Source: an uncultured virus (IMG/VR IMGVR_UViG_3300004097_000004)
Taxonomy: Duplodnaviria > Heunggongvirae > Uroviricota > Caudoviricetes > Schitoviridae
IMG/VR virus record: IMGVR_UViG_3300004097_000004
Strand: one strand, 5' to 3'
DNA length: 20,000 nucleotides
The position numbers and the translations under genes are program-made. Shown here piece after piece: positions 1 through 17,305 of the stretch. The notes beneath the pieces were generated by a model that was not told where the DNA came from, made no database searches, and saw only the letters and a list, made by a program, of their open reading frames with translations. Within the stretch, counting starts at the first letter, position 1. The number at the start of each line of letters is the position of its first letter.

Positions 1-3000
1 TGATACTGCTCTCTGATACGGTCAGGTATATAAGCATCTTCATCCGGATTAAGGTTTAAGAATTTTTTGATATCTTTATCATTTGACAGATTTTTATTAC
101 CAAACTCAATCGCCCAGTTATAGGTAGCTAGTGCCACAGATGTGAGAGTGTTCTCATCAATCTGCCCATCTTCTTGTAAGAAGCCTTTCAAATCCTGATA
201 ATTGAAGTCAGCTCCAGTTTTATCTGATTTACCTTTACTCTTGAACGTATCTAATAGATGCTGTGACAACTCATCTCTATAAGCCAAGAAGTCTACTAAC
301 TGATCTCTCTGTGCCTTTGTAGGGCTTTCAGACACGAGTGAACCCAATCCTTGCATTAGATCAATCTTTAGCTTAGACGCTAGATTAGCCACACCTGATA
401 AAGGCTTAGACTTGGCAGCTACTTGAGTGAAACCGGCCAGTAGTTGATTGCGCTGCCAGAACTCTTTACTACGCTCAATCTCTACCTCTTCCTTGATAAC
501 ATCTTGGAATACCTTGGCTTTACCACCCTCACTTGATTTGAAGTTAACCTCATTATTCTTAGACTGAAGCTCTACGGTACGTGATGTGATATCCATCATA
601 CGGTCAAACAAAGTAGCTGTTTGGTCGTTACTGGCAATGTTAAAGAACGTGCGTAAGCTATTAGTTATTTTACGGAATAAGCTACTCTTAACCTTACCCT
701 CAGTAGTAGACACAGAACGTAGGAACTTACCGATAGCAGGGTCACTTACTACAGCACCTAGTAATTTCTCATTACTAGATAGAGCATCTAATAGTCTGGC
801 TTTCTCTTTACGTGTAAGACCCATGTACTCTTTACCGCTGAGAGTAACAATACGCTCAATATCACGCTTGGCTTTAGACAAATCATAGTTAAGCTGAACC
901 ATCTGTTTACCTTCAGCTTTGATATTCTCATACGTACTGTCTTGCAAACGAATAGCCAAATTAGCAGTAGCACTGTACACAACCATACGTGTAGTTTCTT
1001 GTAGGATATTACTACCCTTACTATTAACCTTTACGTAGATAGTATTGTTGGATTTATCATAGCTACTTGCTTTCACTGTCTCAGACAAACGTATCTTTAA
1101 GCCGGGATTAAAATTAAGAATAGGCTTAATGATTGAAGTATATAACTTACGTTCTTTAGTACTGACTGTCTCTGACTCAATGTAATCAAACAGAGTGTCA
1201 ATAACAGGCTCAATTACTGTAGCTTTACGTAGCTCTTTAGGGAAAGTACGCCCCTTAACATTATCAAGTTCAGGTGTAGTATCTACACTTGCTTCGCTGC
1301 TATCTGTTTGTTGTAACACCTGCTTAATACCATTATCTGCTTCAATCTGATCAATGATATCGCCATCAGTCATCATGTCATCAAATTCTAGTATGCTACG
1401 TACGTTCTTACCTTCAATATCGGTATTGTCCAGTACAACTTTTGCTACTCTGTTATCTGACTTATTACGCACAATATTAAGCGACCATTGACCACCAGTA
1501 TTACTAGGGCCACTATAGTTGTTTCTGTATCCACGCTTACCAACAGTAGAAGTAGTGGTTAACTCATTACTACCTTGTTGTGGTTCAAGTGGGTTAGAAG
1601 CCACAGTAGATAGCTTACCTTTACTATTTACAGCACTTCGCTTAGGTACAACCTTTCTAGGTGCATTAGCCAGTAGAGTAGTATTATCTACTCCTAATTT
1701 GCTCTGTAGCTGTTCTTGTAGGTAAGCGTACGTCTTAGGTGCATTGGCCTTTAACTTCGCCCCTACGCCCACATCAGGGAACATTACGTTACCTGTTTCA
1801 GCAGTAGCTAATACCTTATCAATAGCTGCAGTATTTTTATCTAATGTTTCATCTGTAGCAACATTTAACCCATATTGATTTTTCTCATTAAAACCAAATG
1901 TATCATCAGTTAAATAGATCGCATCATCTACAGTGTCATCTTGCTCAGCAAATACTGTTGCAGGATTAACTGGTACTACAGGGGTTGGAGACACACTCAC
2001 AGGAGGCACAGCAGCCGTAGGCGTAGGTGCCGATGCAGTAGTAGTCGTTACAGGCGTAGTGGGTGTAGGCACGACCACAGGAGCTGTTACCGTTGATGCT
2101 ACAACTGGGTTCTGTGTATTAATCAAGGTGCTTGATATAACACCCATTGCTTCCCTAAAATCAGACAGATCATTAGCTTCTGACTGGATAGCTTTAGTTA
2201 AACGGTTAGGCCCATTAAATGATAAACCACCTGCTTTCTTAAATTCTGCTTCTGTGTAAGCACTACGGTCAACAATACCCCATTCATTATTTTCATTAGG
2301 AGCAATGGTCAAAGGATTATCACGAGTAGCTGCAGCTATGTTGTCTTGGATTAATGTATTTTTACTTGCATGGTTATCTACAAAGTTATCAAGCATACCT
2401 AAATACTTATCGGCAGTGTCAGTGTCATTCGTACTTATACTACGAGTGATCACTTCTTCATACTGTTGAATACCCAAATTAGACTCTAAAGTAGTAGCAC
2501 CTTTCTTACCCTTATAGATTTCTGTGCTAACTTTATCAATGTCATTACCTGATTTGATTTTCTCTTTGATACCTAACAGTTTACGTAAAGCCACTTTCTG
2601 CGCTTGACTGTAAAGAGGACTCTCTTCAATCTCTTTCTCACCTAACACAGAGACTAAATCTCTTTTACTTTTGCTTATGTACTTCTCATTTTCGTCTATG
2701 AAGGCATCAGTAGATTCTATAAATTCCTCAATGTTTTCTTCTTCTGTAATATCTACTTCTTCATCAAAAGGAATATCAAGAGGTGCAATCTCTTCAGCAT
2801 CATAGTCTACCGTTTCTTCTGTATTCTCAGCACTAGATTGACCTGCAATCCTACCTGTAACAGACACGTGAATATGACCACCTGTAGCCCCCTCAGACGG
2901 ATTAGTATATTCATTAAGAACTTTGATTGTGAAACCCTGAGCTTTAGCAGATGCTTCCAACTTCTTAACGATATCAGCACTTTTAGCTTTGGCTTCAGCT

Positions 3001-5318
3001 TGCGTACCTTTAATACTGAAATCAAATGCCTGTCCTTTAGGGTGTTGACCGCCACGACTACCATGGAAATCATCATTAAAAGATGCAAAATGAACTAGTT
3101 CATCACCAACTAAGTCTTGAGTTACTTTAGCAAAGTCAGCAGTATATCCACGTACTTCACCATTACCTATAGATTCACCACTCTTAATACGTAGACCTTT
3201 TAACTTATCATTACTGACAAAACCATTACCTGAATTGGTAGCAGTACCTACTGATCCACCACCTAAGTAACCACGTACTTTACCTACATAACCATCTACT
3301 TCAGCTTTACGTGCTGCACTGCCTGAGAATGTACCATTCTTATAGCTACGTACACCGCCACGGCCTGCATTGTATGCAAGGATAGCGTCATCCCAATTGC
3401 CAAACTCTTTATATGACTTAGCTAAATCTTGTACGGTAGCATCTACAGCAGCATTAGTAACACCAATACTATCCCCTGTTCTTAAGCCATATTCTTTACG
3501 GAATATACCAGTGTGTTGTAGTAGACCTACCGCACCTGTTGGACTCTTAGCTGAGAACTTACCTCCTGACTCTGTTGCAACAATAGCTGTAATTACCCGC
3601 ATAGGTACACCAAATTTCTCTGATGCTTCTTTGAAGTAAGGAACTTTAGCTACAGCAGATTTAGACACTTCCCAAGTTTTACGTTGGTCATCAGACATGT
3701 GAGAAGTATCGTCAGAATTAGCAATACCTGTTGAAGTGGTAGATACTTGGTCATCTGATCTTGATGGAGTATAACTACCTATCTCTGTACCTCTATCTGC
3801 AATAGCTGCATCGTAGCGGGCAGCACGTACTGAAGCAGTGCTTTCAAGTGACTTAGACACATTGCCTATCATTTCTCTGCTCTGCTCAATAATCTCAGCC
3901 TTATTAGCTTTAACACTATTGATATGGTTTTTAACTTCAGCTTCCATTGGTGCCACATACTTAGCTTCAAACTCTATCAAGTCATTGATAAGCTTTGTCT
4001 GTGTTGCAATATCTGTCTCACTGTCAATTGCTTTTTCCATTTCGTCTACACGTGTGTAGATAGCTTTACTTGCAGCAACAACAGTAAGCTCCGCTTGTGC
4101 ACGCTCTTCAGGATTACTTGAACCACTCTTGAATAGTGCATCTTTATACGCGCGTACAGGATTGAATTTATCACTGGTGATATCAACGTTTTCTTCAGCT
4201 GTACCATTCTTTCTAGTATCTCTCTGCTCTATAGCAGTACCTACATCAGCTGTGGCGCTACCTACGACTCCTGGAAGTGTTGTGGCTACGTTAGCATTTA
4301 TCCCAATTAGCAGACCCTGTGTACCGGCTGCTAGAGCACCCTGATCCAAACGAATACGTTTATCCCAGTTATCTATTACTTTCTCGGCAGACTCACCTAA
4401 GAACTCTTCTACACCCTCTACTGGAGCACCTATAGCAGCACCTTTAAGAGTACGAGCACTGTTACCTGCCATACCTGATAGGATTGTATCCATATCGCCA
4501 TGTGGGGCTAGTCTTGCGAAACCACCAGTAATACCACCCACAGTTAGGCCTTTGGCAGCAGCAGCCATAATAGTGCGAGCATCTACATCGTTGTTAGGGT
4601 CATCAGCAGCTTCTGAGATAGCGTTACCAAATACTGTACCACTGGTAGCTGTACCTACTCTTGCAGCTGCACTCATCTTGTTTAAGCCACGAATACCACT
4701 GACAACCTTACCACCTGTGTACATCTCAACCACTGACTGAGGAAGTACCTTAGCAGTATCAAGTAGTAGCATATCAGGATTATCTTTGTAGTAACCTGCA
4801 ACAGCTCCTGCACGATCTGTCTCAGACATGTTGGTATTCTTCATGATACCGTCTAATAAAGCTTGCTTGTTCTTAACAAGATCAGACTTATTCTCTTGTA
4901 AGAATTCCTTGGCTTGGTTTAACCCTAGTGCCTGCTTAGTGTTATTGATAGTTAGGTCAGTATCAACATCTGTACTACCTTTAGTAACCATGTCATAAAT
5001 CATTTTGTGACCAGAACCTGCCAGAGCAGCACTAGATGCTAAACCACTAGCAGCACCAACTAGGCCTGAGCCTATAGCATTAGCCGTATCTTTGAGCACA
5101 GCAGTAGCAGTATTGGCTTTAGGCACACGGTTAGCTGCCAGTGTGTTTGGCTCATACACTACTTGGTTTGGTTGGTTGAAGTCAGGTATAGGTTCAGCTA
5201 CCTTAGTGGCTATACCATTTTTAGTCTTGAAGGTATCAAGTGTTGTTGCAACGTTAGCACGTGCATTCTCAAGATCAATTTTGTTCTGCTCAATATAATC
5301 TGTAATGGTATTCGCCAT
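1..5318 (-). CDS. Giant virion-encapsidated RNA polymerase (N4 gp50-like vRNAP), N-terminal 1772 aa. The gene continues beyond the left edge. Includes SLT and M15 peptidase domains.
   Basis: Manual translation from ATG at 5318 (MANTITDYIEQNK..., purine-rich AGAGAG upstream) gives no stop codon down to position 1, and the frame is consistent at both ends. It sits directly downstream of the gp52/gp51-like genes, as in N4-like phages. I saw no Cys codon, and N4 vRNAP is Cys-free. The last ~150 aa (RNQLLAGFTQ...DENTLTSVALATYNWAIE...DIKKFLNL) resemble the start of the polymerase part of N4-like vRNAPs. The catalytic motifs lie outside the window. Confidence 0.88.
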   Translation of the reverse strand, partial: MANTITDYIEQNKIDLENARANVATTLDTFKTKNGIATKVAEPIPDFNQPNQVVYEPNTLAANRVPKANTATAVLKDTANAIGSGLVGAASGLASSAALAGSGHKMIYDMVTKGSTDVDTDLTINNTKQALGLNQAKEFLQENKSDLVKNKQALLDGIMKNTNMSETDRAGAVAGYYKDNPDMLLLDTAKVLPQSVVEMYTGGKVVSGIRGLNKMSAAARVGTATSGTVFGNAISEAADDPNNDVDARTIMAAAAKGLTVGGITGGFARLAPHGDMDTILSGMAGNSARTLKGAAIGAPVEGVEEFLGESAEKVIDNWDKRIRLDQGALAAGTQGLLIGINANVATTLPGVVGSATADVGTAIEQRDTRKNGTAEENVDITSDKFNPVRAYKDALFKSGSSNPEERAQAELTVVAASKAIYTRVDEMEKAIDSETDIATQTKLINDLIEFEAKYVAPMEAEVKNHINSVKANKAEIIEQSREMIGNVSKSLESTASVRAARYDAAIADRGTEIGSYTPSRSDDQVSTTSTGIANSDDTSHMSDDQRKTWEVSKSAVAKVPYFKEASEKFGVPMRVITAIVATESGGKFSAKSPTGAVGLLQHTGIFRKEYGLRTGDSIGVTNAAVDATVQDLAKSYKEFGNWDDAILAYNAGRGGVRSYKNGTFSGSAARKAEVDGYVGKVRGYLGGGSVGTATNSGNGFVSNDKLKGLRIKSGESIGNGEVRGYTADFAKVTQDLVGDELVHFASFNDDFHGSRGGQHPKGQAFDFSIKGTQAEAKAKSADIVKKLEASAKAQGFTIKVLNEYTNPSEGATGGHIHVSVTGRIAGQSSAENTEETVDYDAEEIAPLDIPFDEEVDITEEENIEEFIESTDAFIDENEKYISKSKRDLVSVLGEKEIEESPLYSQAQKVALRKLLGIKEKIKSGNDIDKVSTEIYKGKKGATTLESNLGIQQYEEVITRSISTNDTDTADKYLGMLDNFVDNHASKNTLIQDNIAAATRDNPLTIAPNENNEWGIVDRSAYTEAEFKKAGGLSFNGPNRLTKAIQSEANDLSDFREAMGVISSTLINTQNPVVASTVTAPVVVPTPTTPVTTTTASAPTPTAAVPPVSVSPTPVVPVNPATVFAEQDDTVDDAIYLTDDTFGFNEKNQYGLNVATDETLDKNTAAIDKVLATAETGNVMFPDVGVGAKLKANAPKTYAYLQEQLQSKLGVDNTTLLANAPRKVVPKRSAVNSKGKLSTVASNPLEPQQGSNELTTTSTVGKRGYRNNYSGPSNTGGQWSLNIVRNKSDNRVAKVVLDNTDIEGKNVRSILEFDDMMTDGDIIDQIEADNGIKQVLQQTDSSEASVDTTPELDNVKGRTFPKELRKATVIEPVIDTLFDYIESETVSTKERKLYTSIIKPILNFNPGLKIRLSETVKASSYDKSNNTIYVKVNSKGSNILQETTRMVVYSATANLAIRLQDSTYENIKAEGKQMVQLNYDLSKAKRDIERIVTLSGKEYMGLTRKEKARLLDALSSNEKLLGAVVSDPAIGKFLRSVSTTEGKVKSSLFRKITNSLRTFFNIASNDQTATLFDRMMDITSRTVELQSKNNEVNFKSSEGGKAKVFQDVIKEEVEIERSKEFWQRNQLLAGFTQVAAKSKPLSGVANLASKLKIDLMQGLGSLVSESPTKAQRDQLVDFLAYRDELSQHLLDTFKSKGKSDKTGADFNYQDLKGFLQEDGQIDENTLTSVALATYNWAIEFGNKNLSNDKDIKKFLNLNPDEDAYIPDRIREQY
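2850..3200 (-). other. M15/LAS-type Zn peptidoglycan peptidase domain within the vRNAP ORF (about aa 707-823)
   Basis: Reads FASFNDDFHGSRGGQHPKGQAFDFSIKG...ATGGHIHVSV. It has H-x6-D (codons 3042-3044 and 3021-3023) in an HxxGxAxD context and HxH (2868-2876). Confidence 0.8.
3264..3650 (-). other. Soluble lytic transglycosylase (SLT/GH23) domain within the vRNAP ORF (about aa 557-685)
   Basis: Reads YFKEASEKFGVPMRVITAIVATESGGKFSAKSPTGAVGLLQ...FGNWDDAILAYNAGRGGV...EVDGYVGKV. Motif I is ES (catalytic Glu codon 3570-3572), motif II GLLQ (3516-3527), motif III AYNAG (3363-3377), and the terminal ExxxYV motif is present. Confidence 0.92.
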
Positions 5319-5420: not shown

Positions 5421-6986
5421 TTAGTAATTATTTCTCAGATCGTAGACACTTCGTGGAGTACCACCACTAGCCTTAGATGGTTTAACTTGATTGCCACTTT
5501 TCTCAATAGCAGCGGCAGCTCTTTTAGCTTTTAGTGCCTTGTCCACATACTCGGGTTTGTCTGTGTAAACAGGGCCTTTGTACTCACTGTTTCTTAATGA
5601 TGGGGGTAGGTACTTGTTATGCTCACTATCAGGACCCATATTCATAATTTTAGTTAGTTCAACTGCGTCAACCAGTTTACCTGCACCCCCAAAAAAGTTT
5701 GCATACACTTCGGCGATAGCGTTGTTTTCTTTTATAGGTTGTGTCTGTTGACGTAGGCGGTTAACAAAATTAGGTACTACCTCTTCGTAAAGACCCTCAT
5801 AGTTAGATACCCCTGCTACGTTCCATGTGCCCGCACTATCAGACTGAAGCTCACCTGTTGCCATGGCTTGAATTACAGCCCACTTCTCATCGTCATTGAG
5901 TTTAAGTGACTTACCTTGCACATTCTGTAGAGCATAGTTAGTTAAAGACTTCTGTGCTTGCCCTAACTGAACATTGTCAAGAACCCTATTATCATCAGGG
6001 GTTTTCATGTACTCAAGAACACGGTCAGCAAACGGTACAGAGTCTGTAGGGTTACGCAGCTTACGTACAGCATCATCTACCTGAGCTGCCAATCCTTGTG
6101 CAGCAGCTCCTGCATCAATACTACCATCTTTTTTAAACATCGTAGGTGGTAAGCCATATAACTCCGCTTTATTACGTACTTCTGCAACCTGAGCTTGTTG
6201 TGTTTTAGCTGTACCCTCCTGTATCTTAAAAGACAAGCCAACATTGCCACGAGTGTTAGCATCAATAGCATTATTAATGTTTGTCTCGGCAGTTTTCTGA
6301 CGTAGTCTTCTCTCATAAGCATCGTTATTCTGACTTTCACCTAGTGCAAACAGATTAGCAGAATCAAGCATATCTATACCATCAGGGTCAGATTTAGCTA
6401 TGGCCTGATCCATTTCTAATTGGTACTTAGCAGCTTCAGCTTTACCCTCTGGTGTAGTCATATCCAATGTACCTAAGTAAGCTTCACCACTACTCATTAT
6501 TTTTAAAATGTCTGAGTACTGTGCTTCTTTCTTGGCTGCAGCAGACGCAGCTTCTGCTTCACTATTGGTACGTGCGTTAACAATACCTGTCTGTGTCATG
6601 TCTTGGGTAGCTGACTGTAGATCAACACCTGCTTGGGCATTACCTATCTGCTTACCACCACGGTTGAGTAACGTGTCTTTACGTGTATCCAGTGCTGCTC
6701 CTATTACAGTTGGGTCCCAGTTGTTACCTGTTGCTGCTGCCATACCTTTGAACTGCTCCATTAGAGCTGCTACGGCAGTAGGGTCATTTATGTTCTCAGG
6801 TGTTTGCTGATTAATGATAGCTTGCATATCTGCGTGATTACGGTTCTGTACCGCACCCATAGCCTCTTGGAATACACCTTGCAAACCAGTTAATGCAGTG
6901 TTACCTGATTGGGCTGCCGCTAGGCGCAAAGCATTACTATCATTAAAGTTAGCTCCTGCAACTTGTCTAAAGTCAATTGTAGCCAT
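5421..6986 (-). CDS. Internal virion/ejection protein, N4 gp51-like (periplasmic tunnel candidate), 521 aa
   Basis: Ala/Gln/Asn-rich, Cys-free ORF with a GGAG RBS, lying between the gp52-like gene and vRNAP. Function is inferred from synteny. Confidence 0.65.
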   Translation of the reverse strand: MATIDFRQVAGANFNDSNALRLAAAQSGNTALTGLQGVFQEAMGAVQNRNHADMQAIINQQTPENINDPTAVAALMEQFKGMAAATGNNWDPTVIGAALDTRKDTLLNRGGKQIGNAQAGVDLQSATQDMTQTGIVNARTNSEAEAASAAAKKEAQYSDILKIMSSGEAYLGTLDMTTPEGKAEAAKYQLEMDQAIAKSDPDGIDMLDSANLFALGESQNNDAYERRLRQKTAETNINNAIDANTRGNVGLSFKIQEGTAKTQQAQVAEVRNKAELYGLPPTMFKKDGSIDAGAAAQGLAAQVDDAVRKLRNPTDSVPFADRVLEYMKTPDDNRVLDNVQLGQAQKSLTNYALQNVQGKSLKLNDDEKWAVIQAMATGELQSDSAGTWNVAGVSNYEGLYEEVVPNFVNRLRQQTQPIKENNAIAEVYANFFGGAGKLVDAVELTKIMNMGPDSEHNKYLPPSLRNSEYKGPVYTDKPEYVDKALKAKRAAAAIEKSGNQVKPSKASGGTPRSVYDLRNNY

Positions 6987-6990
6987 ATTC

Positions 6991-7551
6991 TTATACTCCG
7001 TATTTGCTCATGTAGTCGTCAACACTTGCGTAGGTATTAGGGTCTTTAGCTACACGTGTTGCTTGACGATCAGCCAGTGCTGCATTGGTAGTTTTAGCAG
7101 ATGCTTCAAAGTTTTTATTAAATGAGTCTTTGGTGAATTGAAACTGATCATCAGCTAGTTTGTTTTGTTGGTAGGCATTGTACATATTATAGACACTCTG
7201 TGCTCCGCCCAGCACTGCACTACCTTTTTCACCAAAAGACATCTTATCCCAACTTGCAGCACCTTGATCAATTATCTCCCCTGCTCCTTGAGCTACTGCT
7301 GAGACATCTGCACCTACACCCGCATAGGTATTAGGGAACTTGGATTGAAGCCATTGTTGAACAGAGTTAAGCTGCTTACCTGCACTCACTTGTATATCAG
7401 GTGCAACGTTAGAGACACTGTTTACTATAGGTGTAATGCTCCCTGTTTCTGCCATACCTCCAGTATTGCTGTAAGGACTTGGAATACTAACATTTGGTGT
7501 TTGTGCCCCCTGCAAGATGCTGCTTATTGTGGTAGGAAATTGTATAGCCAT
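6991..7551 (-). CDS. Virion ejection protein, N4 gp52-like (outer-membrane channel candidate), 186 aa
   Basis: AAGGA RBS. The C-terminal pattern GSAVLGGAQSVYNMYNAYQQNKLADDQFQFTKDSFNKNFEASAKTTNAALADRQATR...SVDDYMSKYGV is typical of the N4 gp52 family, and synteny agrees. Confidence 0.8.
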   Translation of the reverse strand: MAIQFPTTISSILQGAQTPNVSIPSPYSNTGGMAETGSITPIVNSVSNVAPDIQVSAGKQLNSVQQWLQSKFPNTYAGVGADVSAVAQGAGEIIDQGAASWDKMSFGEKGSAVLGGAQSVYNMYNAYQQNKLADDQFQFTKDSFNKNFEASAKTTNAALADRQATRVAKDPNTYASVDDYMSKYGV

Positions 7552-7562
7552 TACTGTAATCC

Positions 7563-9848
7563 TTATGTGATTAATAGTTCTTCAATAGGCTCATTAGGCC
7601 TACTGTTGATGGTTTTATATTGAAGTGGTATATCTTTTGCTGCTGCTAAGAAGTAATCCACTGAATTGTAGGACAAGTCATAAACATCAACAAAGGTGCT
7701 TCTAGTATAGAAGTCTTCAGCTGTCTCACCCAAATTTATATTTACCGTGCTTATAGGTGTCAGTAGCTGTTCTAAAGTTAAAGGTACAACACCTGTGTTA
7801 AGCATCTCTTGGGCTTCAGATAATCTGTCCCACTCACTTTCAGCGTACTCATCAAACTCTTGCATCTTTTCTTGTACTAGTTTGATCCTTTCTGCTGTCA
7901 CACGTGCATACATATTAAATGCTTGGTTTGTGGCTTCCATCAAATTTTTAGCATCTAGTATCTTACTAAAATCTATCTTACCTGACATAGCCCCTGCTGC
8001 TACCAATATCAATGTTATTACAGCTGTAAGTTCAGGGGATAATCCTACAGCCACTGCTATCTCTACAGCTATGTTGATAATTACTTTAATGGCTAAACCA
8101 GTTAATACAGTGACTACTACCGCCTCCATTAAGGCTGTAAGAGTTAGGCCAGAACCCGGTACGATTAAATTCATACCAATAGATATGACTGCCATTACTA
8201 CTTTAAATATAGTGCTTTCATACCATTTCTCTTTTATGACTTTCTTGGTGCTAACAGTTATCTGCATGGCTCTGTTAAGCAGTAACTCTCTTCTATTAAA
8301 TTGAGATTGCTCAACCACTGTTATATCTAGTGGTACTGTTAAATTCTCATCATAGTCTATGGCTGTAACTGTGTTGTTCTGATATATCTGCTTAATCCTG
8401 AGATCGTGTAGTGTCAGTTCTATGTACTGGTTATCACCTATCTGGTAAACGAATATGTGCTTACTGGTAGTTGAGCCAAATACACTGTTACCTTTGTTTG
8501 TACGCACAATACCGTACTTAACACAGAACTCACCTTTAGCTAAATCAGCACCATCGTTATTAGTAGTGACACCAGTACGTACTGATTTGCCTGCTTTGGT
8601 ATAACTTAACACCTGAGTGTATTCACTATCTGTTATGGTTTGAGTCATTCTACTCTTTTCATTACTGAGTACCGGTGCCACCCTATCCGCCACTGCTACA
8701 TCATCACTCTTGTCATATAGTGTATTAAAGTAGTTGTATAGGTATTCAGCATTGACTTGGTCATCTTGGTCTTTATTGACAGAGATAGACAGATGCATGA
8801 ATATGTACTTATAACTGCTGTCTATATCTTCAATACTTTCCTCAATCTGTTCAGTGATAGAGTCTAAGTCCAAACCTAGTAAGTTCATCATATTTTCAGT
8901 ATGTACTTTACGGGTGTCATCGTCAGCCCTTTCCACAACATCTTCACTATCTATACGTGTGTAGAGTCTTGGGTAATAATGACCGAACTCTTCCTCATAA
9001 CCTGTGGCCTTATCAATCTCCTCAATACCACCACTCATGTATTCATAAGTAAAGAGTTTGTACGTATCACCTACTTTATACATGGCCTGCATGTACTCAA
9101 CCTCTTCAGGTGCGTCTACTGTACTCTCAAGCACTACAGGGAATACATCATCTAGTGATATGGTTTCAGTACCTGTCTCTAATTGATTATTTAAACTATA
9201 CACGTAGGTTATGATTAGTTTATCTGCATCACCTATCTCTATGTCTGGTTGCTCTCTATTAGGGTCTACTGCTCTGTCTGGAGTATATCCGTAGGACATA
9301 GCCAAGCCATACTGCTCTGTAGTGCCCATTCTAGTGCTTTCATCTATGGATTCTTGTGTTAGTATCATCTGACTGCTTAGTAGGTAACAAGGCGTACCCA
9401 TACGCACTGAGAGCTTCTTAATCTCATTGGTTTTACCTGAGTACAAGTAATCATCGTATAAGGCCTTCCAACCGAAGTGGTAAGGGTTCTTATCATTTAG
9501 GCTGTTATAGAGCACACTTACTGCCTGACCTTCTACAGTCTCAAGGTATGTAGTGAGGGCTGCTTTAGTATCAGTGAGACTCGTAGTACTGATACTTGAT
9601 CTAGGTACACCAAATATGTAGTTATCCGTGTCTAAGGCTCTGTTATAGGCCTGTTTCCACTTAACAGGCATAGACGTACTTCTGATACCTGTCACGCACT
9701 CTCCAAGGCTTTTGGAGTCCATACTAGGCCTTAGATTTAGCTTCCTCTCTGCTATATACTTTTGCATACCATAATCAGCAGAGCTGCTATAGTTTTCGTC
9801 ATCTAGCAGTCTCTGTGTTACTGAACTTCTATACGTCTTACTACCCAT
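7563..9848 (-). CDS. Virion structural protein, N4 gp53-like (tail plug/tip candidate), about 761 aa
   Basis: Long ORF with a KEKWYES motif followed by several hydrophobic segments, as in gp53 homologues. I moved the start from 9896 to the ATG at 9848 (MGSKTY...) because a GGGTG RBS precedes it and the upstream extension overlaps a terminator. Confidence 0.75.
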   Translation of the reverse strand: MGSKTYRSSVTQRLLDDENYSSSADYGMQKYIAERKLNLRPSMDSKSLGECVTGIRSTSMPVKWKQAYNRALDTDNYIFGVPRSSISTTSLTDTKAALTTYLETVEGQAVSVLYNSLNDKNPYHFGWKALYDDYLYSGKTNEIKKLSVRMGTPCYLLSSQMILTQESIDESTRMGTTEQYGLAMSYGYTPDRAVDPNREQPDIEIGDADKLIITYVYSLNNQLETGTETISLDDVFPVVLESTVDAPEEVEYMQAMYKVGDTYKLFTYEYMSGGIEEIDKATGYEEEFGHYYPRLYTRIDSEDVVERADDDTRKVHTENMMNLLGLDLDSITEQIEESIEDIDSSYKYIFMHLSISVNKDQDDQVNAEYLYNYFNTLYDKSDDVAVADRVAPVLSNEKSRMTQTITDSEYTQVLSYTKAGKSVRTGVTTNNDGADLAKGEFCVKYGIVRTNKGNSVFGSTTSKHIFVYQIGDNQYIELTLHDLRIKQIYQNNTVTAIDYDENLTVPLDITVVEQSQFNRRELLLNRAMQITVSTKKVIKEKWYESTIFKVVMAVISIGMNLIVPGSGLTLTALMEAVVVTVLTGLAIKVIINIAVEIAVAVGLSPELTAVITLILVAAGAMSGKIDFSKILDAKNLMEATNQAFNMYARVTAERIKLVQEKMQEFDEYAESEWDRLSEAQEMLNTGVVPLTLEQLLTPISTVNINLGETAEDFYTRSTFVDVYDLSYNSVDYFLAAAKDIPLQYKTINSRPNEPIEELLIT

Positions 9849-9861
9849 AATATTCACCCAT

Positions 9862-9891
9862 AAAAAAAGGACATTGTCTCCAATGCCCTTT
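9862..9891 (-). terminator. Rho-independent terminator after the gp54-like gene
   Basis: Minus strand reads AGGGCATTG-GAGA-CAATGTCCT then TTTTTT: a 9-bp stem, a GNRA tetraloop and a U7 tract. Confidence 0.88.
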
Positions 9892-9908
9892 ATCATATAC
9901 TAAACCAA

Positions 9909-11090
9909 TTAAACAATAGTAACATCAATACCACTCATGATTGACTGCACTGCTTTACCAATAGTTGTGTCTTCCAACTTATTGTTAGCATCAGCTCTGT
10001 TACCATCAGGGTCATTTTGATTTCTAACTATCCATGTGTCTATCAATAACTTAGCAGCTGTTTGTTGTGCGCTACGTAAGAAAGTTTTTGATTGCTCCTG
10101 TATTAAATTATTGTTATAGGCCAATACAGAGTCTTCAGTTAAATCAGAACCATCTACCTGAGCTTTCTCAGTTTTAGTCTTCTGGTCATAAAAAGATTTC
10201 TGTGAAGTGGTCAGTGCTACCTCTGCAGGTAGTTTATTAGCTAACTCATATTTAGTCAGTAATATCTGCTCTGCTTTTAACAACAAGTCTTTACTACTTA
10301 GATCCAATTGAGCTTGTTTAACCAACAGCTCTTTAGTTCCTAAATCAATTTGATTTTGCTTGAGTAAAATATCTTTAGTGGCTAAATCAATCTGAGCTTG
10401 CTTAACAAGTATCTCTTTATCAGATAACGCTAACTGCTTTTCTTTAAGTGTGATATCAGATTGTATAGACTCTAATTCCACTGCCTGTTTGAAGTCACGC
10501 TCAAATACGAGCATATCCCACTGAACATCTTTAAGTTTAGTATCAGCAGTAATGGATTTGGTTTGCTCATCAATCTGATCACGTTGTGCAACAGTGTTAA
10601 GTGTTTGTTGTACGACTTGAGCTTCTTGTACTGTAACGAGTGATGTCTGTGCTTCAGTGGCTTCCAACTGAGCGGGTAGTATAAAGTTGGTCTGATAATC
10701 TGTCTGTCTTGTATTGGCTAATACCATTGCTGCATTAGCATTCTCAGTTGTAATCTGAGCTTCAAGTAGCGCAGCTTGCTTGGTAGTTAATACCGTATCA
10801 GCAGCCAGTTTACCTATCTGCGCTTCCAGTAGTTGTAGCTCTAAACCCATCTTAGACTTAGCCAACGCATACTGCGTGGCTTGCGCCATTACCTGTGTAA
10901 GAGACTGTGAGAAGACATTAGCATAGTCAGTACCACGAATACGTTCAGCATCAAACTCCTCACGTAAGTGGGATTTAACAGCTTTGAGCATTACATCAAA
11001 GACACCATTACCATCTGCGGTGCCTTTAGTCAGCTCATCAATCTGGAACTCAAGACTGATACTACTATCTGGAATTGGAATAGAAGACAT
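9909..11090 (-). CDS. Virion structural protein, N4 gp54-like (coiled-coil tail tube candidate), 393 aa
   Basis: N-terminal LTKGTADGNGVFDVMLKAVKSHLREEFDAERIRGTDYANVF and C-terminal QTAAKLLIDTWIVR motifs are typical of the gp54 family. It has an AAGG RBS and an extended coiled coil. Confidence 0.82.
   Translation of the reverse strand: MSSIPIPDSSISLEFQIDELTKGTADGNGVFDVMLKAVKSHLREEFDAERIRGTDYANVFSQSLTQVMAQATQYALAKSKMGLELQLLEAQIGKLAADTVLTTKQAALLEAQITTENANAAMVLANTRQTDYQTNFILPAQLEATEAQTSLVTVQEAQVVQQTLNTVAQRDQIDEQTKSITADTKLKDVQWDMLVFERDFKQAVELESIQSDITLKEKQLALSDKEILVKQAQIDLATKDILLKQNQIDLGTKELLVKQAQLDLSSKDLLLKAEQILLTKYELANKLPAEVALTTSQKSFYDQKTKTEKAQVDGSDLTEDSVLAYNNNLIQEQSKTFLRSAQQTAAKLLIDTWIVRNQNDPDGNRADANNKLEDTTIGKAVQSIMSGIDVTIV
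10245..10454 (-). repeat. Five tandem 14-aa (42-nt) degenerate repeats within the gp54-like gene
   Basis: ITLKEKQLALSDKE / ILVKQAQIDLATKD / ILLKQNQIDLGTKE / LLVKQAQLDLSSKD / LLLKAEQILLTKYE. Confidence 0.85.
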
Positions 11091-11103
11091 TATATAACCT
11101 TAA

Positions 11104-11637
11104 TTAGTCGTTTACAGCGTTACGGTTTTCTTGGCTACGACCAAGCTCAATTAACTCTTCTTTGGTAAGTGTAGGCAAGCGGGTAACATTGAATGCTTTA
11201 GCCATCTTAGACTCACGTACATCACGACCGTTCACACGCTTGGTAGTGAAGTATTGCATTTCCTGAGCTTCAATGTGCTCAAGGATAATGTTTGGGATAT
11301 GGAACTCACTGTTGAACAGAATATACTTACTGATCGTGTTGATAACAGAGTTACCTACAGAGAACAACTGGCCTTGGTAGTCTCGCATATGGGCGGCCAC
11401 TGGCATTACAACTGCACGAATTAGTTTGCCGCTTTCTTTTTCAAGAGTCACACGGTCTTTGTTTGAAATAGACTTATCATTATCATCTGACTCAGACAGT
11501 AGTAAATCCATGATTTGCTTGCGTAGTGCTTTGGCACTCACATTACCTTTATAGTCTAAACCAAGAATATCAGCTTGAGTCTTTAGTAGCTCAATTTCGC
11601 TAGGTAATTTAACTTCTTTAGTAGTATCAACGCTCAT
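11104..11637 (-). CDS. Conserved N4 gp55-like protein, about 177 aa
   Basis: ELLKTQADILGLDYKGNVSAKALRKQI and LPTLTKEELIELG motifs, located just downstream of the capsid gene. ATG 11637 (after AAGGTGCAGGA) is preferred over TTG 11655. Confidence 0.8.
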   Translation of the reverse strand: MSVDTTKEVKLPSEIELLKTQADILGLDYKGNVSAKALRKQIMDLLLSESDDNDKSISNKDRVTLEKESGKLIRAVVMPVAAHMRDYQGQLFSVGNSVINTISKYILFNSEFHIPNIILEHIEAQEMQYFTTKRVNGRDVRESKMAKAFNVTRLPTLTKEELIELGRSQENRNAVND

Positions 11638-11671
11638 TAGTCCTGCACCTTGCAATTATTTAATTATAGAT

Positions 11672-11714: not shown

Positions 11715-12890
11715 TTACATTACAGCAGCTGTCTTGATAACTGCGATACGCTCAGTACGTAGGCCCATGAAGCCGTACCACCATTTGATAGAGCTGAAGC
11801 CCATTTCGCCATACGGATCATTACGGTCTGCAGTTTCAACGCCGGGCTTACGGTTAACAGTTTCAAACTTATTACCTTTACCATCAGTTTGGAAACCAAT
11901 AGTAGTGAATGATTCATCACCAACAATCAATAGTGGGAATACATCGTATTTAGTACCTGTACTATGGAATGAAGCATCAGAGTTAGTAGCACCAACACCT
12001 GCCCATTTGAACATGTTAGGGACAACTACAAAGCGGAACTCACCAATAGAACCACGTTCGCCTTTAAGCAGAGTAGTACCTGCAGCATACTGGTTGACCG
12101 GAACAAAGGCACGTTCACCATGTAAATCTTTCATGGCTTCAAGAGTATGGATCATTTCAGAACCACAGTAAACAACACGGCAAGCAGGGATAGTCTTGGT
12201 ATCAATGTTACGAGTACCAGTGATAATCTTAGTTTGCTTAGGCGTACGGTTGTTGTCCAAAGTAATCGCCACACGCATCAAATCAGTGTAGGTCAGTACA
12301 GAGGTTTCACTTACGGTAGCAGCAGTTGTTGCAGCACCTGTAAAGTAAATCGTAGCAGCGTTGGTCAATAGGTCAATCTGTAGTGCATCTTCAGTTACCT
12401 GCATGGCGCCAGTCATTAGCTCACGCATGATATGACTCATCATTTCAGGATCAGAGTCAAAGTTCATCAAGTCTTTTGAGTATTCAGTGAAGAAACCAAA
12501 TTTCTCAAAAGTACCTTCAATTTCTTTACGCTTGAAACCAACACGGTTGACACGACCACCAGTCTCACCAAGTGCAGGGAGCTTACCAGTGATTAAACCA
12601 ATGTCTTTGGTACTGCCATAGAGATTACCATCAACAAGTTCAGCACCCGCTGCGTCAATCCCCTGATCGTTGATGTTGGCATCATCAAGTAAAGGTAGGT
12701 AATGATACTGCTTAATGCGTGTACCAGAGTTTTTAGGCATACTACGTACATCAGCTAACTGACCGAAGTATTGCTCTTCACGTGCTTCAACAAGAGCTTT
12801 ACGCTCAAAGAAGTGTGGATTTAATTGGGTAGAGCCTACGGTAGACGCACCGTCATTATAGGTCATACCTTGTTTAGTTGCTGCAACCAT
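11715..12890 (-). CDS. Major capsid protein, N4 gp56 family, 391 aa
   Basis: Family motifs YFGQLADVRSMPKN, YLPLLDDANINDQGIDA, GNLYGSTKD, GGRVNRVGF and DPYGEMGFSSIKWWYG. AAGGA RBS. Confidence 0.97.
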   Translation of the reverse strand: MVAATKQGMTYNDGASTVGSTQLNPHFFERKALVEAREEQYFGQLADVRSMPKNSGTRIKQYHYLPLLDDANINDQGIDAAGAELVDGNLYGSTKDIGLITGKLPALGETGGRVNRVGFKRKEIEGTFEKFGFFTEYSKDLMNFDSDPEMMSHIMRELMTGAMQVTEDALQIDLLTNAATIYFTGAATTAATVSETSVLTYTDLMRVAITLDNNRTPKQTKIITGTRNIDTKTIPACRVVYCGSEMIHTLEAMKDLHGERAFVPVNQYAAGTTLLKGERGSIGEFRFVVVPNMFKWAGVGATNSDASFHSTGTKYDVFPLLIVGDESFTTIGFQTDGKGNKFETVNRKPGVETADRNDPYGEMGFSSIKWWYGFMGLRTERIAVIKTAAVM

Positions 12891-12907: not shown

Positions 12908-14041
12908 TTAATATAATTTGTGTAGTTCGGCCATTTTCATAATCTCTTCATCAGAGACAGCCAGTGGATTGAATGCTTCTTCTTTAGCAGAACTGCCACT
13001 ATTAGGGCTAGCCACTTTACGCTTCTTGCTGTTATTACTTGCAGCTTTAGGCTTAGGTCGTGGTGCTTTAATAACTGGTTTAGGTTCTGCAGGTTTAGTG
13101 CTAGGTATTAGTGTTTGCTCCACAATAGAGTAAGCCTGAATATCTGATACATCTTTCAAACGTCCGCAAGAACGTTCGTATTCAACCTTATCTAAAATCT
13201 TATTGAAGTCACCATTTTCTTGCTGTTCACTAAGCACACGTAGAACGTTAGGATTGTTGATAACAAAGTGGTGACTATCTTCATCCCATGAGCCAGAGAT
13301 AGTTTGTAGTAGTCCTGCAAATTTTGGTGAGCTTCTTAGCTCTGCGACCACTTCTTGAAACTTACTCTGCTCAATAACTTTATTAACTGGCTTGTAGCTA
13401 TCTGTGTCCTCAGACTCAAGATCATAAGCTTCAATACCACTATCTTTCACAAGTTTGGCAATGGCTTTAGGGTCTTTGTTATGCAGGTCAATTAGATAGG
13501 AGATTTTCTCATTACTCATTAAACCATGTTCTTCAAGTGTTCTAAGTACACCCATTCCCGGTTTCATCTCAGCCATACGCTTGCTGTAGTTGATACCTTG
13601 CTGCACTAAAGTCTTAATGTCAGATGGGTTGCTAATGCTCATCATCTTACCGTTAGCTTTAAACTCAGCAGTGACAGCGTCATAGAAACTTTGCAGCTCT
13701 TCTAATGACATACCATCTGTAGGTTCTTCCGACTCTTCGTCAGTGTCCTCATCAGCATCTTCTTGAGTACCTTCATCGGCATTGTCAAAAACATCGGCTT
13801 CTGTGGTATCTGCAGGCTCTTCAGTTTCATCTACTTCGGCAGTTTCCACTTCTTCCTGTTCTTCTTCTTCACCATCTATTTCTGACTCTGCATTGTCAGC
13901 TTCTGGCTCCGGAGCTTCTTCAGGTTCTTCTGGCGTTTGCTCAGCAGGTTCCTCATCAGCAACCTCTTCGTTGTCAGCAACAAATTGACCGAAATCCATT
14001 TGTGCTAATTCTTCATCGGACATACTATACATATCAGGCAT
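12908..14041 (-). CDS. N4 gp57-like protein (probable head scaffold/assembly protein, often annotated as tape measure), 377 aa
   Basis: Very acidic N-terminal ~110 aa, conserved FKANGK...LVQQGINYSKRM and YLIDLHNKDPKAIAKLVKDSGI core, and a basic Pro-rich tail. It lies immediately upstream of the capsid gene. Confidence 0.82.
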   Translation of the reverse strand: MPDMYSMSDEELAQMDFGQFVADNEEVADEEPAEQTPEEPEEAPEPEADNAESEIDGEEEEQEEVETAEVDETEEPADTTEADVFDNADEGTQEDADEDTDEESEEPTDGMSLEELQSFYDAVTAEFKANGKMMSISNPSDIKTLVQQGINYSKRMAEMKPGMGVLRTLEEHGLMSNEKISYLIDLHNKDPKAIAKLVKDSGIEAYDLESEDTDSYKPVNKVIEQSKFQEVVAELRSSPKFAGLLQTISGSWDEDSHHFVINNPNVLRVLSEQQENGDFNKILDKVEYERSCGRLKDVSDIQAYSIVEQTLIPSTKPAEPKPVIKAPRPKPKAASNNSKKRKVASPNSGSSAKEEAFNPLAVSDEEIMKMAELHKLY

Positions 14042-17294: not shown

Positions 17295-17305
17295 TTTCGT
17301 ATTCC

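What the first reader, a model, noticed from the sequence alone, without database searches (positions are those of the whole stretch)
2850..3650. Virion RNA polymerase carrying a tandem two-enzyme cell-wall hydrolase module (lytic transglycosylase plus M15 Zn-peptidase)
Seen in sequence: the unannotated giant ORF contains an intact SLT domain (TES with E583, GLLQ, AYNAG, ExxxYV). After a short Gly/Ser linker (GGGSVGTATNSGNG) comes an intact H759-x6-D766...H815-x-H817 domain. Established knowledge: SLT cleaves glycan strands, M15/LAS peptidases cleave stem peptides, and N4-like vRNAP is ejected across the cell envelope. To my recollection the N4 prototype vRNAP has no such pair. Inference: one polypeptide both breaches peptidoglycan (glycan and peptide bonds) and starts early transcription. 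An SLT fused to a large ejected protein has precedent in T7 gp16, but this dual module on an RNA polymerase would be hidden under a plain 'vRNAP' label. I cannot establish novelty without a search.
Basis: partly seen in the sequence, partly recalled or inferred. Interest (0 to 1): 0.88.

Follow-up and report, generated by a model that had tools for sequence, protein, structure and literature searches.

The report
Injected phage polymerase with two wall-cutting domains
The giant RNA polymerase that this N4-like phage probably injects with its DNA carries, near its front end, one domain that likely cuts the sugar chains and one that likely cuts the peptide links of the bacterial cell wall. This is a two-enzyme version of a fusion first described in 2017.

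Summary
The minus-strand ORF 3..5318 (1772 aa, runs off the window) is the N-terminal part of an N4-type virion RNA polymerase (vRNAP). The evidence is a phrog_2206 match, 54% identity to a 4078-aa full-length relative, and gp53-like, capsid and portal genes alongside.

- **First domain:** residues 561-663 are a Pfam SLT domain (57 bits; E583, GLLQ and AYNAG intact).
- **Second domain:** residues ~700-829 are an intact LAS (hedgehog/DD-peptidase clan) zinc-peptidase domain. H759-x6-D766 and H815 are invariant, and H817 nearly so, across 39 relatives. The best fold match is pneumococcal VldE, the "MT3" tape-measure motif. It passes no curated Pfam M15 model, so "M15" holds only at clan level.

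Novelty is limited. Iyer et al. 2017 already reported N4-like vRNAPs fused to lysozyme/transglycosylase domains. What is new is the glycan-cutter plus peptide-cutter pair. It sits in a ~400-570-aa slot found in the window's protein and 31 relatives. In near-identical relatives the peptidase alone is swapped (P0162/P0164).

The likely role is local wall digestion during ejection, an activity a 2026 paper says N4's own ejection proteins lack. No activity was tested.

The parts
3..5318 (-). N-terminal 1772 aa of an N4-type virion RNA polymerase (gp50 equivalent). The ORF runs off the window, so the polymerase core lies beyond it.
   Evidence: ORF list and translation. phrog_2206 'virion RNA polymerase' E 1.1e-33 on aa 904-1759. 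54% identity to the 4078-aa P0002, which covers phrog_2206 almost end to end.
4254..5078 (-). Region holding three Gly/Ala-rich, weakly hydrophobic segments (aa 81-103, 249-268, 327-355). These are candidate membrane-inserting helices of the N-terminal domain.
   Evidence: Kyte-Doolittle scan, 19-aa window, mean >1.0. The analogy is to the putative membrane-spanning helices at residues 224-278 of the N4 gp50 NTD (PMC13434306). Inferred; no topology predictor was run.
3330..3638 (-). SLT (GH23-type lytic transglycosylase) domain, aa 561-663. Catalytic E583 is at 3570-3572.
   Evidence: Pfam PF01464 57 bits, E 1.8e-15. Aligns to the T7 gp16 N-terminal transglycosylase with TES on TES. Residues checked.
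3222..3263 (-). Gly/Ser/Thr linker GGGSVGTATNSGNG (aa 686-699) between the two enzyme domains.
   Evidence: Read from the translation. pLDDT is about 57 for the first 10 residues of the domain model, which starts at aa 687.
2832..3221 (-). LAS / hedgehog-DD-peptidase-fold zinc metallopeptidase domain (MT3-like), aa 700-829. Predicted Zn ligands are H759, D766 and H817; H815 is the first His of the HxH motif.
   Evidence: Alignment A1 invariants. Profile against PDB: Sonic hedgehog N E 1.3e-3, VldE E 0.09. Relatives hit HH_signal 16/39, Peptidase_M15_4 14/39, M15_3 8/39, VanY 7/39. AF2 pLDDT 89.8. VIA Z 8.9 to VldE and 8.0-8.3 to hedgehog N.
2679..2831 (-). Acidic, probably disordered linker (aa 830-880) after the enzyme pair.
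   Evidence: Read from the translation. It is poorly conserved against P0002 in the BLASTP alignment.
2139..2663 (-). Conserved block (aa 886-1060) that forms the downstream border of the variable muralytic slot.
   Evidence: phmmer finds this block in 48 of the 76 related vRNAPs. It starts at ~870-1060 in the 31 slot-bearing relatives and at ~551-586 in five of the shorter (3374-3567 aa) ones.
1944..2126 (-). Pro/Thr/Val-rich low-complexity linker (aa 1065-1125) ahead of the polymerase part.
   Evidence: Read from the translation. Analogous to the ~100-residue low-complexity NTD-RNAP linker of N4 gp50 (PMC13434306); this is an inference.
5421..6986 (-). 521-aa ORF in the position of N4 gp51 (periplasmic tunnel protein). 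Assigned by position only.
   Evidence: No PHROG, Pfam or PDB sequence match. It lies between the gp52-position ORF and the vRNAP.
6991..7551 (-). 186-aa ORF in the gp52 position.
   Evidence: phrog_2646 (unknown function) E 1.3e-25. The gp52 role is inferred from position.
7563..9896 (-). N4 gp53-like protein.
   Evidence: phrog_2220 E 1.9e-84. PDB chain 9ze4_M 'N4 gp53-like protein' E 6.5e-31.

Best explanation
The ORF is the N-terminal domain of an N4-type virion RNA polymerase, a protein that in N4 is packed in the capsid and ejected into the host with the DNA. Between its hydrophobic N-terminal helices and the linker that leads to the polymerase, it carries two cell-wall enzymes in tandem.

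- **SLT lytic transglycosylase (aa 561-663, catalytic E583).** It should cleave MurNAc-GlcNAc bonds of the glycan strands.
- **LAS-type zinc metallopeptidase (aa ~700-829).** Predicted Zn ligands are H759, D766 and H817, with H815 of the HxH motif. It should cleave a stem-peptide or cross-link bond. By likeness to VldE, Ply500 and T5 endolysin, an L-Ala-D-Glu cut is the best guess.

**Proposed mechanism (inferred).** During ejection the N-terminal domain reaches the periplasm and inner membrane. The two flexibly linked enzymes open the peptidoglycan mesh locally, in both of its bond types. The trans-envelope channel and the rest of the polymerase and DNA can then pass, after which the polymerase part transcribes the early genes.

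**Shown:** the domains, their intact motifs, the fold, and the vRNAP identity.

**Inferred:** catalysis, bond specificity, timing, and presence in the virion.
For: **vRNAP identity:**
- phrog_2206 hit.
- P0002 is 54% identical over all 1772 aa. It matches phrog_2206 over aa 827-4066 and N4 vRNAP PDB chains at E 1e-34. It has DGVNNG and R-x3-K-x8-Y polymerase motif sequence.
- Synteny with gp53-like, capsid, portal and terminase genes.

**SLT domain:** Pfam 57 bits, with TES aligned to T7 gp16 TES.

**LAS domain:**
- 603 relatives, with the motif residues invariant in 39 sequences.
- Profile hit to hedgehog N at E 1.3e-3, aligning H759/D766 on the SLHYEGRAVD stretch.
- Sub-threshold M15_3, M15_4 and VanY hits in relatives.
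- Model pLDDT 89.8.
- The top four of 48,161 chains are VldE (Z 8.9) and three hedgehog N domains (Z 8.0-8.3). T5 peptidase, MepA, LdcB, 1lbu, DacB and VanX follow at Z 5.4-6.2. Foldseek's top hits are the same families.

**Muralytic context:**
- Of 34 relatives scanned, 13 carry a Pfam glycosidase-type domain next to this domain.
- Six are tape-measure or minor-tail proteins, and PHROG tape-measure hits agree.
- VldE/MT3 is an experimentally shown L-Ala-D-Glu endopeptidase with Zn on H301/D308/H375 (PMC11667670, passages read).

**Need for such an activity:** the N4 paper states that peptidoglycan hydrolysis is required, that N4's ejection proteins seem to lack it, and that the gp50 NTD binds lipid (PMC13434306).
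Against: - No enzymatic, proteomic or infection data exist for this protein or any close relative.
- The phage is known only from uncultured sequence. No relative was found in the phage, viral-contig or genome collections.
- The window's LAS domain passes no Pfam model. The fold scores are middling: Foldseek E 0.02, Z just above the tool's caution line of 8.
- Hedgehog N shows that this fold with its zinc site need not act as a wall peptidase.
- I could not inspect the model's coordinates, so the zinc-site geometry is unchecked.
- In the published N4 model the vRNAP leaves the capsid last, after the outer-membrane and periplasmic parts are in place. A wall cutter riding on it would arrive late unless the order differs here.
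- The polymerase core is outside the window and no genome is held. It is therefore inferred from P0002.
Confidence: 0.75

Rival explanations
1. The LAS domain is not a wall peptidase. It is either a zinc protease that processes the polyvalent protein or a host protein, or a non-catalytic binding or structural module, as in hedgehog N. Only the SLT domain would then cut the wall.
For: Hedgehog N domains are among the top sequence and fold matches. No Pfam peptidase model is passed. Iyer et al. 2017 propose that polyvalent proteins are cut into units, though by a different zincin domain.
Against: The family sits almost only in tape-measure, tail-lysin, TraG-like and virion proteins, beside glycosidase domains in 13 of 34 scanned. 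The closest solved fold, VldE/MT3, is a proven peptidoglycan endopeptidase. In related vRNAPs the position is filled by other wall-peptidase types: Peptidase_M15_4 in P0159, and a module with an M15A-like fold in P0153-type proteins.
Confidence: 0.1
2. The ORF is not a virion RNA polymerase. It is another large ejected or tail protein (tape-measure-like or polyvalent) that merely shares N-terminal blocks with vRNAPs.
For: The polymerase core is not in the window. The nearest relatives of the LAS domain are tape-measure proteins at 51-57% identity. P0003, a 4735-aa SLT-bearing protein with helicase and methylase hits, shows that other giant proteins share the SLT.
Against: aa 904-1759 match the vRNAP profile at positions 656-1068. 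The whole 1772 aa aligns colinearly at 54% identity with P0002, which continues into a complete vRNAP. The gene order is that of N4 gp50-gp53.
Confidence: 0.03
3. The enzyme pair is a decayed or silent passenger cassette with no role in infection.
For: The slot is highly variable and exchanged among relatives. Shorter vRNAPs, N4 included, do without it.
Against: Every catalytic and invariant residue of both domains is intact. The pair is 57% identical over 369 aa of the slot to P0002, against a 54% whole-protein identity. That is no faster drift than the rest of the protein.
Confidence: 0.05

Closest known systems
Polyvalent N4-like vRNAPs fused to a lysozyme/transglycosylase domain (Iyer, Burroughs, Anand, de Souza, Aravind 2017, J Bacteriol; example Moraxella prophage DR90_1081)
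   Same: An N4-type virion polymerase carrying a wall-cutting domain in the same polypeptide, proposed to help breach peptidoglycan at invasion (passages read).
   Different: The passages I read name lysozyme/transglycosylase, ART and RNase fusions on vRNAPs. They mention DD-peptidases only for 'a limited subset of polyvalent proteins' in general. A glycosidase plus LAS-peptidase pair on a vRNAP, and its module-by-module exchange, are not in those passages. I did not read the paper's figures or supplements. I could not fetch the Moraxella protein to compare it.
T7 gp16 (internal virion protein D) N-terminal SLT domain
   Same: An SLT domain on a large ejected podovirus protein. It aligns to the window's SLT at E 9e-4, with the catalytic TES conserved.
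   Different: T7 gp16 has one enzyme, at the extreme N-terminus, and no polymerase. Here the SLT starts at aa 561, is followed by a peptidase, and sits on a vRNAP. That gp16's SLT is needed only under some growth conditions is recalled, not checked here.
MT3 domain: motif 3 of mycobacteriophage TM4 tape measure protein (Piuri & Hatfull 2006) and S. pneumoniae VldE (Spr1875)
   Same: Best structural match (Z 8.9, rmsd 2.9 over 89 residues, 24% identity). Same H-x6-D ... H-x-H zinc motif. Relatives of the window's domain are mostly tape-measure proteins. VldE cuts L-Ala-D-Glu.
   Different: Sequence similarity to VldE is marginal (profile E 0.09). The residue seven positions before the first zinc His is Arg294 in VldE, but at the same spacing here it is an invariant His (H752). 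This reading rests on spacing only, with no residue-level alignment. VldE's zinc-zipper loop was not examined. The Piuri & Hatfull paper was seen only as a citation.
Coliphage N4 gp50 N-terminal domain
   Same: Same position in the protein and probably the same job: lipid binding and inner-membrane complex, followed by a low-complexity linker to the polymerase.
   Different: N4's NTD (residues 1-906) has no recognised wall hydrolase, and the authors expect that activity in trans. The first ~608 positions of the vRNAP PHROG profile do not align with aa 1-826 of the relative P0002.
Pseudomonas phage EL ORF183 (gp183) and similar jumbo-phage virion lysins
   Same: They carry the same LAS-type domain (37.6% identity over 112 aa, E 1e-10) near the C-terminus of a giant structural protein. 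EL-like proteins P0123 and P0136 have Phage_lysozyme2 immediately before it.
   Different: These are contractile-tail phage proteins with no polymerase. The glycosidase partner is Phage_lysozyme2, not SLT.

Membership tests
Pfam SLT (PF01464), GH23-type lytic transglycosylase | Profile score above the curated gathering cut-off | tested here: met
   57 bits against 21.3, E 1.8e-15, aa 561-663, profile positions 2-108 of 117.
Pfam SLT (PF01464), GH23-type lytic transglycosylase | Catalytic Glu in the E-S motif, plus the GLMQ-like and AYNxG motifs | tested here: met
   T582-E583-S584, GLLQ 598-601 and AYNAG 648-652. TES aligns with TES of T7 gp16. That these motifs define the family is recalled knowledge.
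Pfam SLT (PF01464), GH23-type lytic transglycosylase | Lytic transglycosylase activity (1,6-anhydro-MurNAc products) | not testable with these tools
   Needs enzyme assays.
LAS / clan MD (hedgehog/DD-peptidase fold) zinc metallopeptidases | H-x6-D and H-x-H zinc-binding/catalytic motifs | tested here: met
   H759-x6-D766 and H815-x-H817. H759, D766 and H815 are invariant; H817 is kept in 37 of 39 (Asp in 2). H759/D766 align on the hedgehog SLHYEGRAVD stretch. Which hedgehog residues bind zinc is recalled.
LAS / clan MD (hedgehog/DD-peptidase fold) zinc metallopeptidases | The alpha/beta LAS fold | tested here: met
   AF2 pLDDT 89.8. VIA-align against 48,161 chains: VldE Z 8.9, hedgehog N Z 8.3/8.2/8.0, then T5 peptidase, MepA, LdcB, 1lbu, DacB, VanX and the RB49 peptidase at Z 5.0-6.2. 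Foldseek top hits are VldE (prob 0.98, E 0.02) and hedgehog N. The scores are middling; the consistency of the families carries the call.
LAS / clan MD (hedgehog/DD-peptidase fold) zinc metallopeptidases | Zinc binding and peptidase activity | not testable with these tools
Curated Pfam M15 families (Peptidase_M15_3, Peptidase_M15_4, VanY, Peptidase_M15_2) | Profile score above the gathering cut-off | tested here: not met
   The window's domain gives no M15 hit even at E<=10. Among 39 family members, sub-threshold hits at E<=1 occur in 14 (M15_4), 8 (M15_3), 7 (VanY) and 1 (M15_2). The domain is therefore related at clan level but is not a member of these models.
MT3 domain (TM4 tape-measure motif 3 / VldE) | Sequence and fold likeness to VldE-MT3, and occurrence in tape-measure proteins | tested here: inconclusive
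   VldE is the top fold match (Z 8.9), but the profile E-value is only 0.09. Relatives are largely tape-measure proteins. The TM4 sequence itself was not compared.
N4-type virion RNA polymerase (phrog_2206; Schitoviridae gp50) | Match to the vRNAP profile | tested here: met
   E 1.1e-33 over aa 904-1759, matching profile positions 656-1068 of 3406. The relative P0002 scores 1145 bits over profile positions 609-3394.
N4-type virion RNA polymerase (phrog_2206; Schitoviridae gp50) | T7-like single-subunit polymerase motifs | not testable with these tools
   These lie beyond the window and no genome is held. In P0002 the motif-B region aligns at E 8e-44, with SDGVNNG and RANMKALLIPFGYS. Motif naming is recalled.
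N4-type virion RNA polymerase (phrog_2206; Schitoviridae gp50) | Gene neighbourhood: gp51-gp53 equivalents, then capsid, portal and terminase on the same strand | tested here: met
   gp53-like (E 6.5e-31 to 9ze4_M), major head protein, SU10-type portal and large terminase. The gp51 and gp52 equivalents are assigned by position only.
Polyvalent proteins (Iyer et al. 2017) | Zincin-like metallopeptidase (HExxH) domain in the C-terminal part | not testable with these tools
   This lies beyond the window. The only hint is a sub-threshold SprT-like hit at aa 3084-3122 of relative P0170.

The most novel reading that the evidence does not exclude
The N-terminal domain of a whole clade of uncultured giant vRNAPs (about 4100-6000 aa) holds a two-position 'wall-breaching slot'. 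In it, the glycan-cutting and the peptide-cutting modules are exchanged independently between otherwise near-identical phages.

- **Shown here:** P0162 and P0164 are 95-100% identical on both sides, but only 11-41% identical across ~190 aa where one LAS subtype replaces another.
- **Shown here:** nearly identical LAS modules sit behind either an SLT or a different first module.
- **Novel reading:** this mix-and-match tunes the ejection machine to the peptidoglycan chemistry of the host. Crossing the wall would then be a host-range step in N4-like phages, and the activity that N4 itself seems to lack would be supplied in cis.
Probability: 0.4. Interest if true: 0.6.

Novelty: new variant of a known kind. 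Interest (0 to 1): 0.45.

Why it matters
How N4-like phages get through the peptidoglycan layer is an acknowledged gap. The 2026 structural paper on N4 says the activity is needed but is not found in N4's ejection proteins.

This lineage puts two complementary wall enzymes on the ejected polymerase itself. That gives a concrete, testable answer for part of the family.

The LAS domain involved has no Pfam model and has 603 relatives, mostly in tape-measure and tail proteins. It would be missed by routine annotation, and defining it would improve annotation of virion-associated lysins. Such lysins are also of practical interest as enzymes active on Gram-negative walls.

The clean module swaps in relatives offer natural experiments on whether wall chemistry limits host range.

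Tried and rejected
- **Whole genome:** not held for this window. The continuation of the ORF could not be read and was inferred from P0002.
- **Close relatives in contig collections:** none. The didomain query found nothing in viral contigs or genome contigs. An alignment of the conserved aa 1301-1772 block found nothing either.
- **Phage collection, second domain:** tblastn found 14 records, none under a feature annotated as vRNAP. They are EL-like and Erwinia jumbo phages, a Psychrobacter phage and a Vibrio phage.
- **Phage collection, SLT:** 378 records matched. Only 60 rows were seen, none under a vRNAP feature, and 318 were not inspected. This is not a full survey of Schitoviridae.
- **Pfam on the second domain alone:** only a chance-level Phage_Gp84 hit.
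- **Sequence search of the didomain against PDB:** found the SLT only.
- **One or several origins of the LAS domain in vRNAPs:** a tree was used, with 51 rows (14 vRNAP, 37 others). P0025 and P0032 were never included. The vRNAP label needs 4 changes on the tree, but well-supported branches force only 1, so the question stays open.
- **Alternative first module (GES...KYQ) of P0153-type relatives:** no Pfam hit at E<=0.5 and no PDB sequence hit. The only fold match is weak: Z 6.0 to a cyanophage A-1(L) baseplate protein, on a model with pLDDT 59.5. Its lysozyme-like nature is only my guess.
- **Protein atlas look-ups for P0153 parts:** Not pursued.
- **The gp51-position ORF:** no PHROG, Pfam or PDB match.
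- **Literature:** searches found no paper describing a peptidase or a glycosidase-peptidase pair on a vRNAP. Only open-access full text and bioRxiv were searched.
Full report
**What is in the window.** All long ORFs lie on the minus strand. PHROG, Pfam and PDB matches identify the following genes:

| Window coordinates | Assignment | Evidence |
|---|---|---|
| 17306..18907 | large terminase | PHROG |
| 14434..16680 | SU10-type portal | phrog_1216, 749 bits |
| 11715..12890 | major head protein | PHROG |
| 9909..11090, 11104..11655, 12908..14041 | N4-type structural proteins | PHROG |
| 7563..9896 | gp53-like protein | E 6.5e-31 to PDB 9ze4_M |
| 6991..7551, 5421..6986 | positions of N4 gp52 and gp51 | position; phrog_2646 on the 6991..7551 ORF only |
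| 3..5318 | giant ORF, 1772 aa, runs off the window | |

This is the late-gene module of an N4-like podovirus. At nucleotide level it is far from every deposited phage. The best match is 70% identity over about 1.1 kb of the capsid gene.

**Is the giant ORF a virion RNA polymerase?** Residues 904-1759 match phrog_2206 'virion RNA polymerase' (E 1.1e-33) at profile positions 656-1068 of 3406. That is the stretch just before and at the start of the polymerase core. The core itself is outside the window and no genome is held.

A full-length relative exists in the metagenomic protein collection. P0002 has 4078 aa and is 54% identical and colinear over all 1772 aa. It matches phrog_2206 from aa 827 to 4066 at 1145 bits. 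It matches the solved full-length N4 vRNAP chains at E about 1e-34. It carries SDGVNNG and R-x3-K-x8-Y sequence in the block that aligns with the motif-B region of other vRNAPs at E 8e-44. I take the vRNAP identity as well supported but formally inferred for the window's own protein.

**The first enzyme.** Pfam SLT scores 57 bits (cut-off 21.3) on aa 561-663. The catalytic Glu (E583, codon 3570-3572), GLLQ and AYNAG are in place. The domain aligns with the N-terminal transglycosylase of T7 gp16, TES on TES.

**The second enzyme.** Pfam does not recognise aa ~700-829. A full HMMER scan of 1.84 billion representative proteins found 603 relatives at E<=0.001.

I aligned the domain from 38 of them with the window's copy (alignment A1). 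Invariant residues are K712, D749, H752, H759, G762, D766, E803, Y804, S808 and H815. H817 is His in 37 and Asp in 2. This gives the S/G-x-H-x-x-G-x-A-x-D plus H-x-H signature of LAS enzymes.

- The A1 profile hits Sonic hedgehog N domains in the PDB (E 1.3e-3) and, weakly, VldE and LdcB.
- Individual members give sub-threshold Pfam hits to HH_signal (16 of 39), Peptidase_M15_4 (14), Peptidase_M15_3 (8) and VanY (7).
- The AlphaFold model is confident, with pLDDT 89.8.
- Against 48,161 PDB representatives, the top four matches are the VldE C-terminal domain (Z 8.9, rmsd 2.9, 89 residues) and three hedgehog N domains (Z 8.0-8.3).
- T5 L-alanoyl-D-glutamate peptidase, MepA, LdcB, the Streptomyces Zn DD-peptidase, DacB and VanX follow at Z 5.4-6.2.
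- Foldseek ranks the same families first, with weak E-values of 0.02.

[quoted passage not shown] It is a zinc L,D-endopeptidase that cuts L-Ala-D-Glu, with H301, D308 and H375 on the zinc (PMC11667670, passages read).

H-x-H domain is therefore real and intact. 'M15' is right only at the level of the clan; the nearest characterised relative is MT3/VldE.

**Where the second domain occurs elsewhere.** I scanned 34 relatives with Pfam.
- Five are TMP_3 tape-measure proteins, one is a PhageMin_Tail protein and one has a TraG N-terminal region.
- Thirteen carry a glycosidase-type domain next to it, in either order. The types are SLT, SLT_3, Phage_lysozyme2, GH19 and VgrG3-like C. PHROG hits agree.
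- In deposited phages the domain appears in EL ORF183-type giant virion proteins and in a baseplate-region protein of Psychrobacter phage D'Alembert. It appears in no record under a vRNAP feature.

The glycan-cutter plus LAS-peptidase pair is thus a common kit of phage entry proteins that has been placed here on a polymerase.

**How common it is on vRNAPs.** Searching with the C-terminal domain of P0002 returned 76 giant proteins of 3065-5963 aa.

| Feature | Count | Call |
|---|---|---|
| Precomputed Pfam SLT | 9 of 76 | 52 |
| Precomputed Amidase_2, VanY, Phage_lysozyme2 | 1 each | 52 (accessions); names of the last two confirmed in 55, PF01510's recalled |
| A1-type LAS domain, always at aa ~680-880 (my profile) | 13 of 76 | 53 |
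| SLT followed by A1-LAS, as in the window (P0002, P0157, P0168, P0173, P0176) | 5 of 76 | 53 |

Other combinations also occur. P0159 has SLT plus Peptidase_M15_4. P0189 has VanY plus A1-LAS. P0155 has SLT plus another module.

Two conserved blocks flank this region in the window's protein and in 31 relatives, leaving a variable slot of ~390-570 aa. In five of the shorter (3374-3567 aa) vRNAPs the downstream block starts ~300-400 residues earlier, so they have no slot.

The alternative second module, with a 'STAHNHGxAGD ... GRxHFG' signature, also folds as a LAS domain. It matches 1lbu at Z 6.9, hedgehog N at 6.5 and VanX at 6.2, and Foldseek's top hits are hedgehog N and 1lbu. The model is mediocre, with pLDDT 59.5 overall and 75-89 in that domain.

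**Module exchange.** P0162 and P0164 are 95-100% identical in every 60-residue window from aa 1 to 720 and from 909 to 1388. They are only 11-41% identical between aa 721 and 908, where A1-LAS is replaced by the other LAS type. Three more pairs show the same picture at lower background identity.

Conversely, ten vRNAP A1-LAS modules form one clade with 100/100 support and very short tips, although four sit behind an SLT and six behind a different first module. Both positions of the slot are therefore exchanged independently.

The window's LAS groups only with P0002's (97/98 support). It is closer to tape-measure copies (51-57% identity) than to the other vRNAP copies (about 32-46%). The tree cannot tell one origin from several.

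**Mechanism.** The 2026 N4 study describes gp50 as 'beads on a string'. Its lipid-binding N-terminal domain has putative membrane-spanning helices at residues 224-278, and a ~100-residue low-complexity linker joins it to the polymerase. That study states that peptidoglycan hydrolysis is needed but is not found in N4's ejection proteins (PMC13434306, passages read).

The window's protein has the same layout:
- weakly hydrophobic Gly/Ala-rich segments at aa 81-103, 249-268 and 327-355;
- a Pro/Thr-rich linker at aa ~1065-1125;
- the two enzymes in between, set off by a Gly/Ser linker and an acidic linker.

I infer that the pair is exposed in the periplasm during ejection and opens the wall locally in both bond types.

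One open difficulty remains. In the N4 model the vRNAP leaves last, after the periplasmic tunnel is built. No other ORF of the window has a Pfam muralytic domain.

**Comparison with what is known.** Iyer et al. 2017 already reported that N4-like vRNAPs can be fused to lysozyme/transglycosylase domains and proposed a role in breaching peptidoglycan. They mention DD-peptidases in a small subset of polyvalent proteins generally (PMC5512222, passages read). Hardies et al. 2016 note that internal virion proteins host tail-lysozyme domains and place the N4 polymerase within an IVP-D homologue (PMC4819975, passages read).

Six full-text searches found no description of a peptidase, or of a glycosidase-peptidase pair, on a vRNAP. 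My results on different proteins agree with that picture.

**Verdict.** The observation and the structural reading are right. The functional reading is plausible and untested. The finding is a new variant of a known kind (a polyvalent vRNAP with a muralytic add-on), of moderate interest. The more interesting point is the independently exchangeable two-enzyme slot in the wider clade.

Noticed in passing
Relatives P0162 / P0164 (aa 721-908); also P0161/P0165, P0163/P0170, P0158/P0156: Near-identical giant vRNAPs (95-100% identity on both sides) differ only in a ~190-aa block where one LAS-peptidase subtype replaces another. This is a clean cassette swap.
   Followed up: yes
Relative P0189, aa 580-703 and 748-883: This vRNAP carries two peptidase-type domains in tandem and no Pfam-detected glycosidase: VanY (108 bits) followed by the A1-type LAS domain.
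   Followed up: partly
Relatives P0153, P0158, P0161, P0163 etc., first ~170 aa of the slot's folded part (P0153 slot residues ~98-259): A conserved helical module with a 'GESG...VNYG...VAVGKYQ' signature occupies the place of the SLT. It has no Pfam or PDB sequence match and only a weak fold match (Z 6.0) to a cyanophage A-1(L) baseplate protein. It is possibly an unrecognised muramidase family.
   Followed up: partly
window 5421..6986 (-): The 521-aa ORF in the position of N4 gp51 (periplasmic tunnel) has no PHROG, Pfam or PDB sequence match at all.
   Followed up: partly
L001 (Pseudomonas phage EL, ORF183), locus 1501-1836: The same LAS-type domain lies near the C-terminus of EL's giant virion protein. 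Different records annotate it only as 'lysozyme domain', 'tail fiber protein' or 'endolysin'. The peptidase part seems unannotated.
   Followed up: partly
Relatives listed (e.g. P0183, P0186, P0187, P0191, P0194, P0201, P0212, P0217, P0223): Other vRNAPs of the clade carry further cargo domains by precomputed Pfam accession: PF18798, PF18760, PF18809, PF13671, PF08719, and a helicase set PF13604/PF13245/PF13538/PF05970. The accession names were not looked up here.
   Followed up: no
window 17306..17360 (-): The longest-ORF call for the large terminase overlaps the end of the upstream adaptor-like gene (16680..17360) by 55 bases. The true terminase start may be a later start codon.
   Followed up: no
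window 1944..2126 (-), aa 1065-1125: A Pro/Thr/Val-rich low-complexity stretch sits where N4 gp50 has its ~100-residue NTD-polymerase linker. It is much less conserved against P0002 than the flanks.
   Followed up: no
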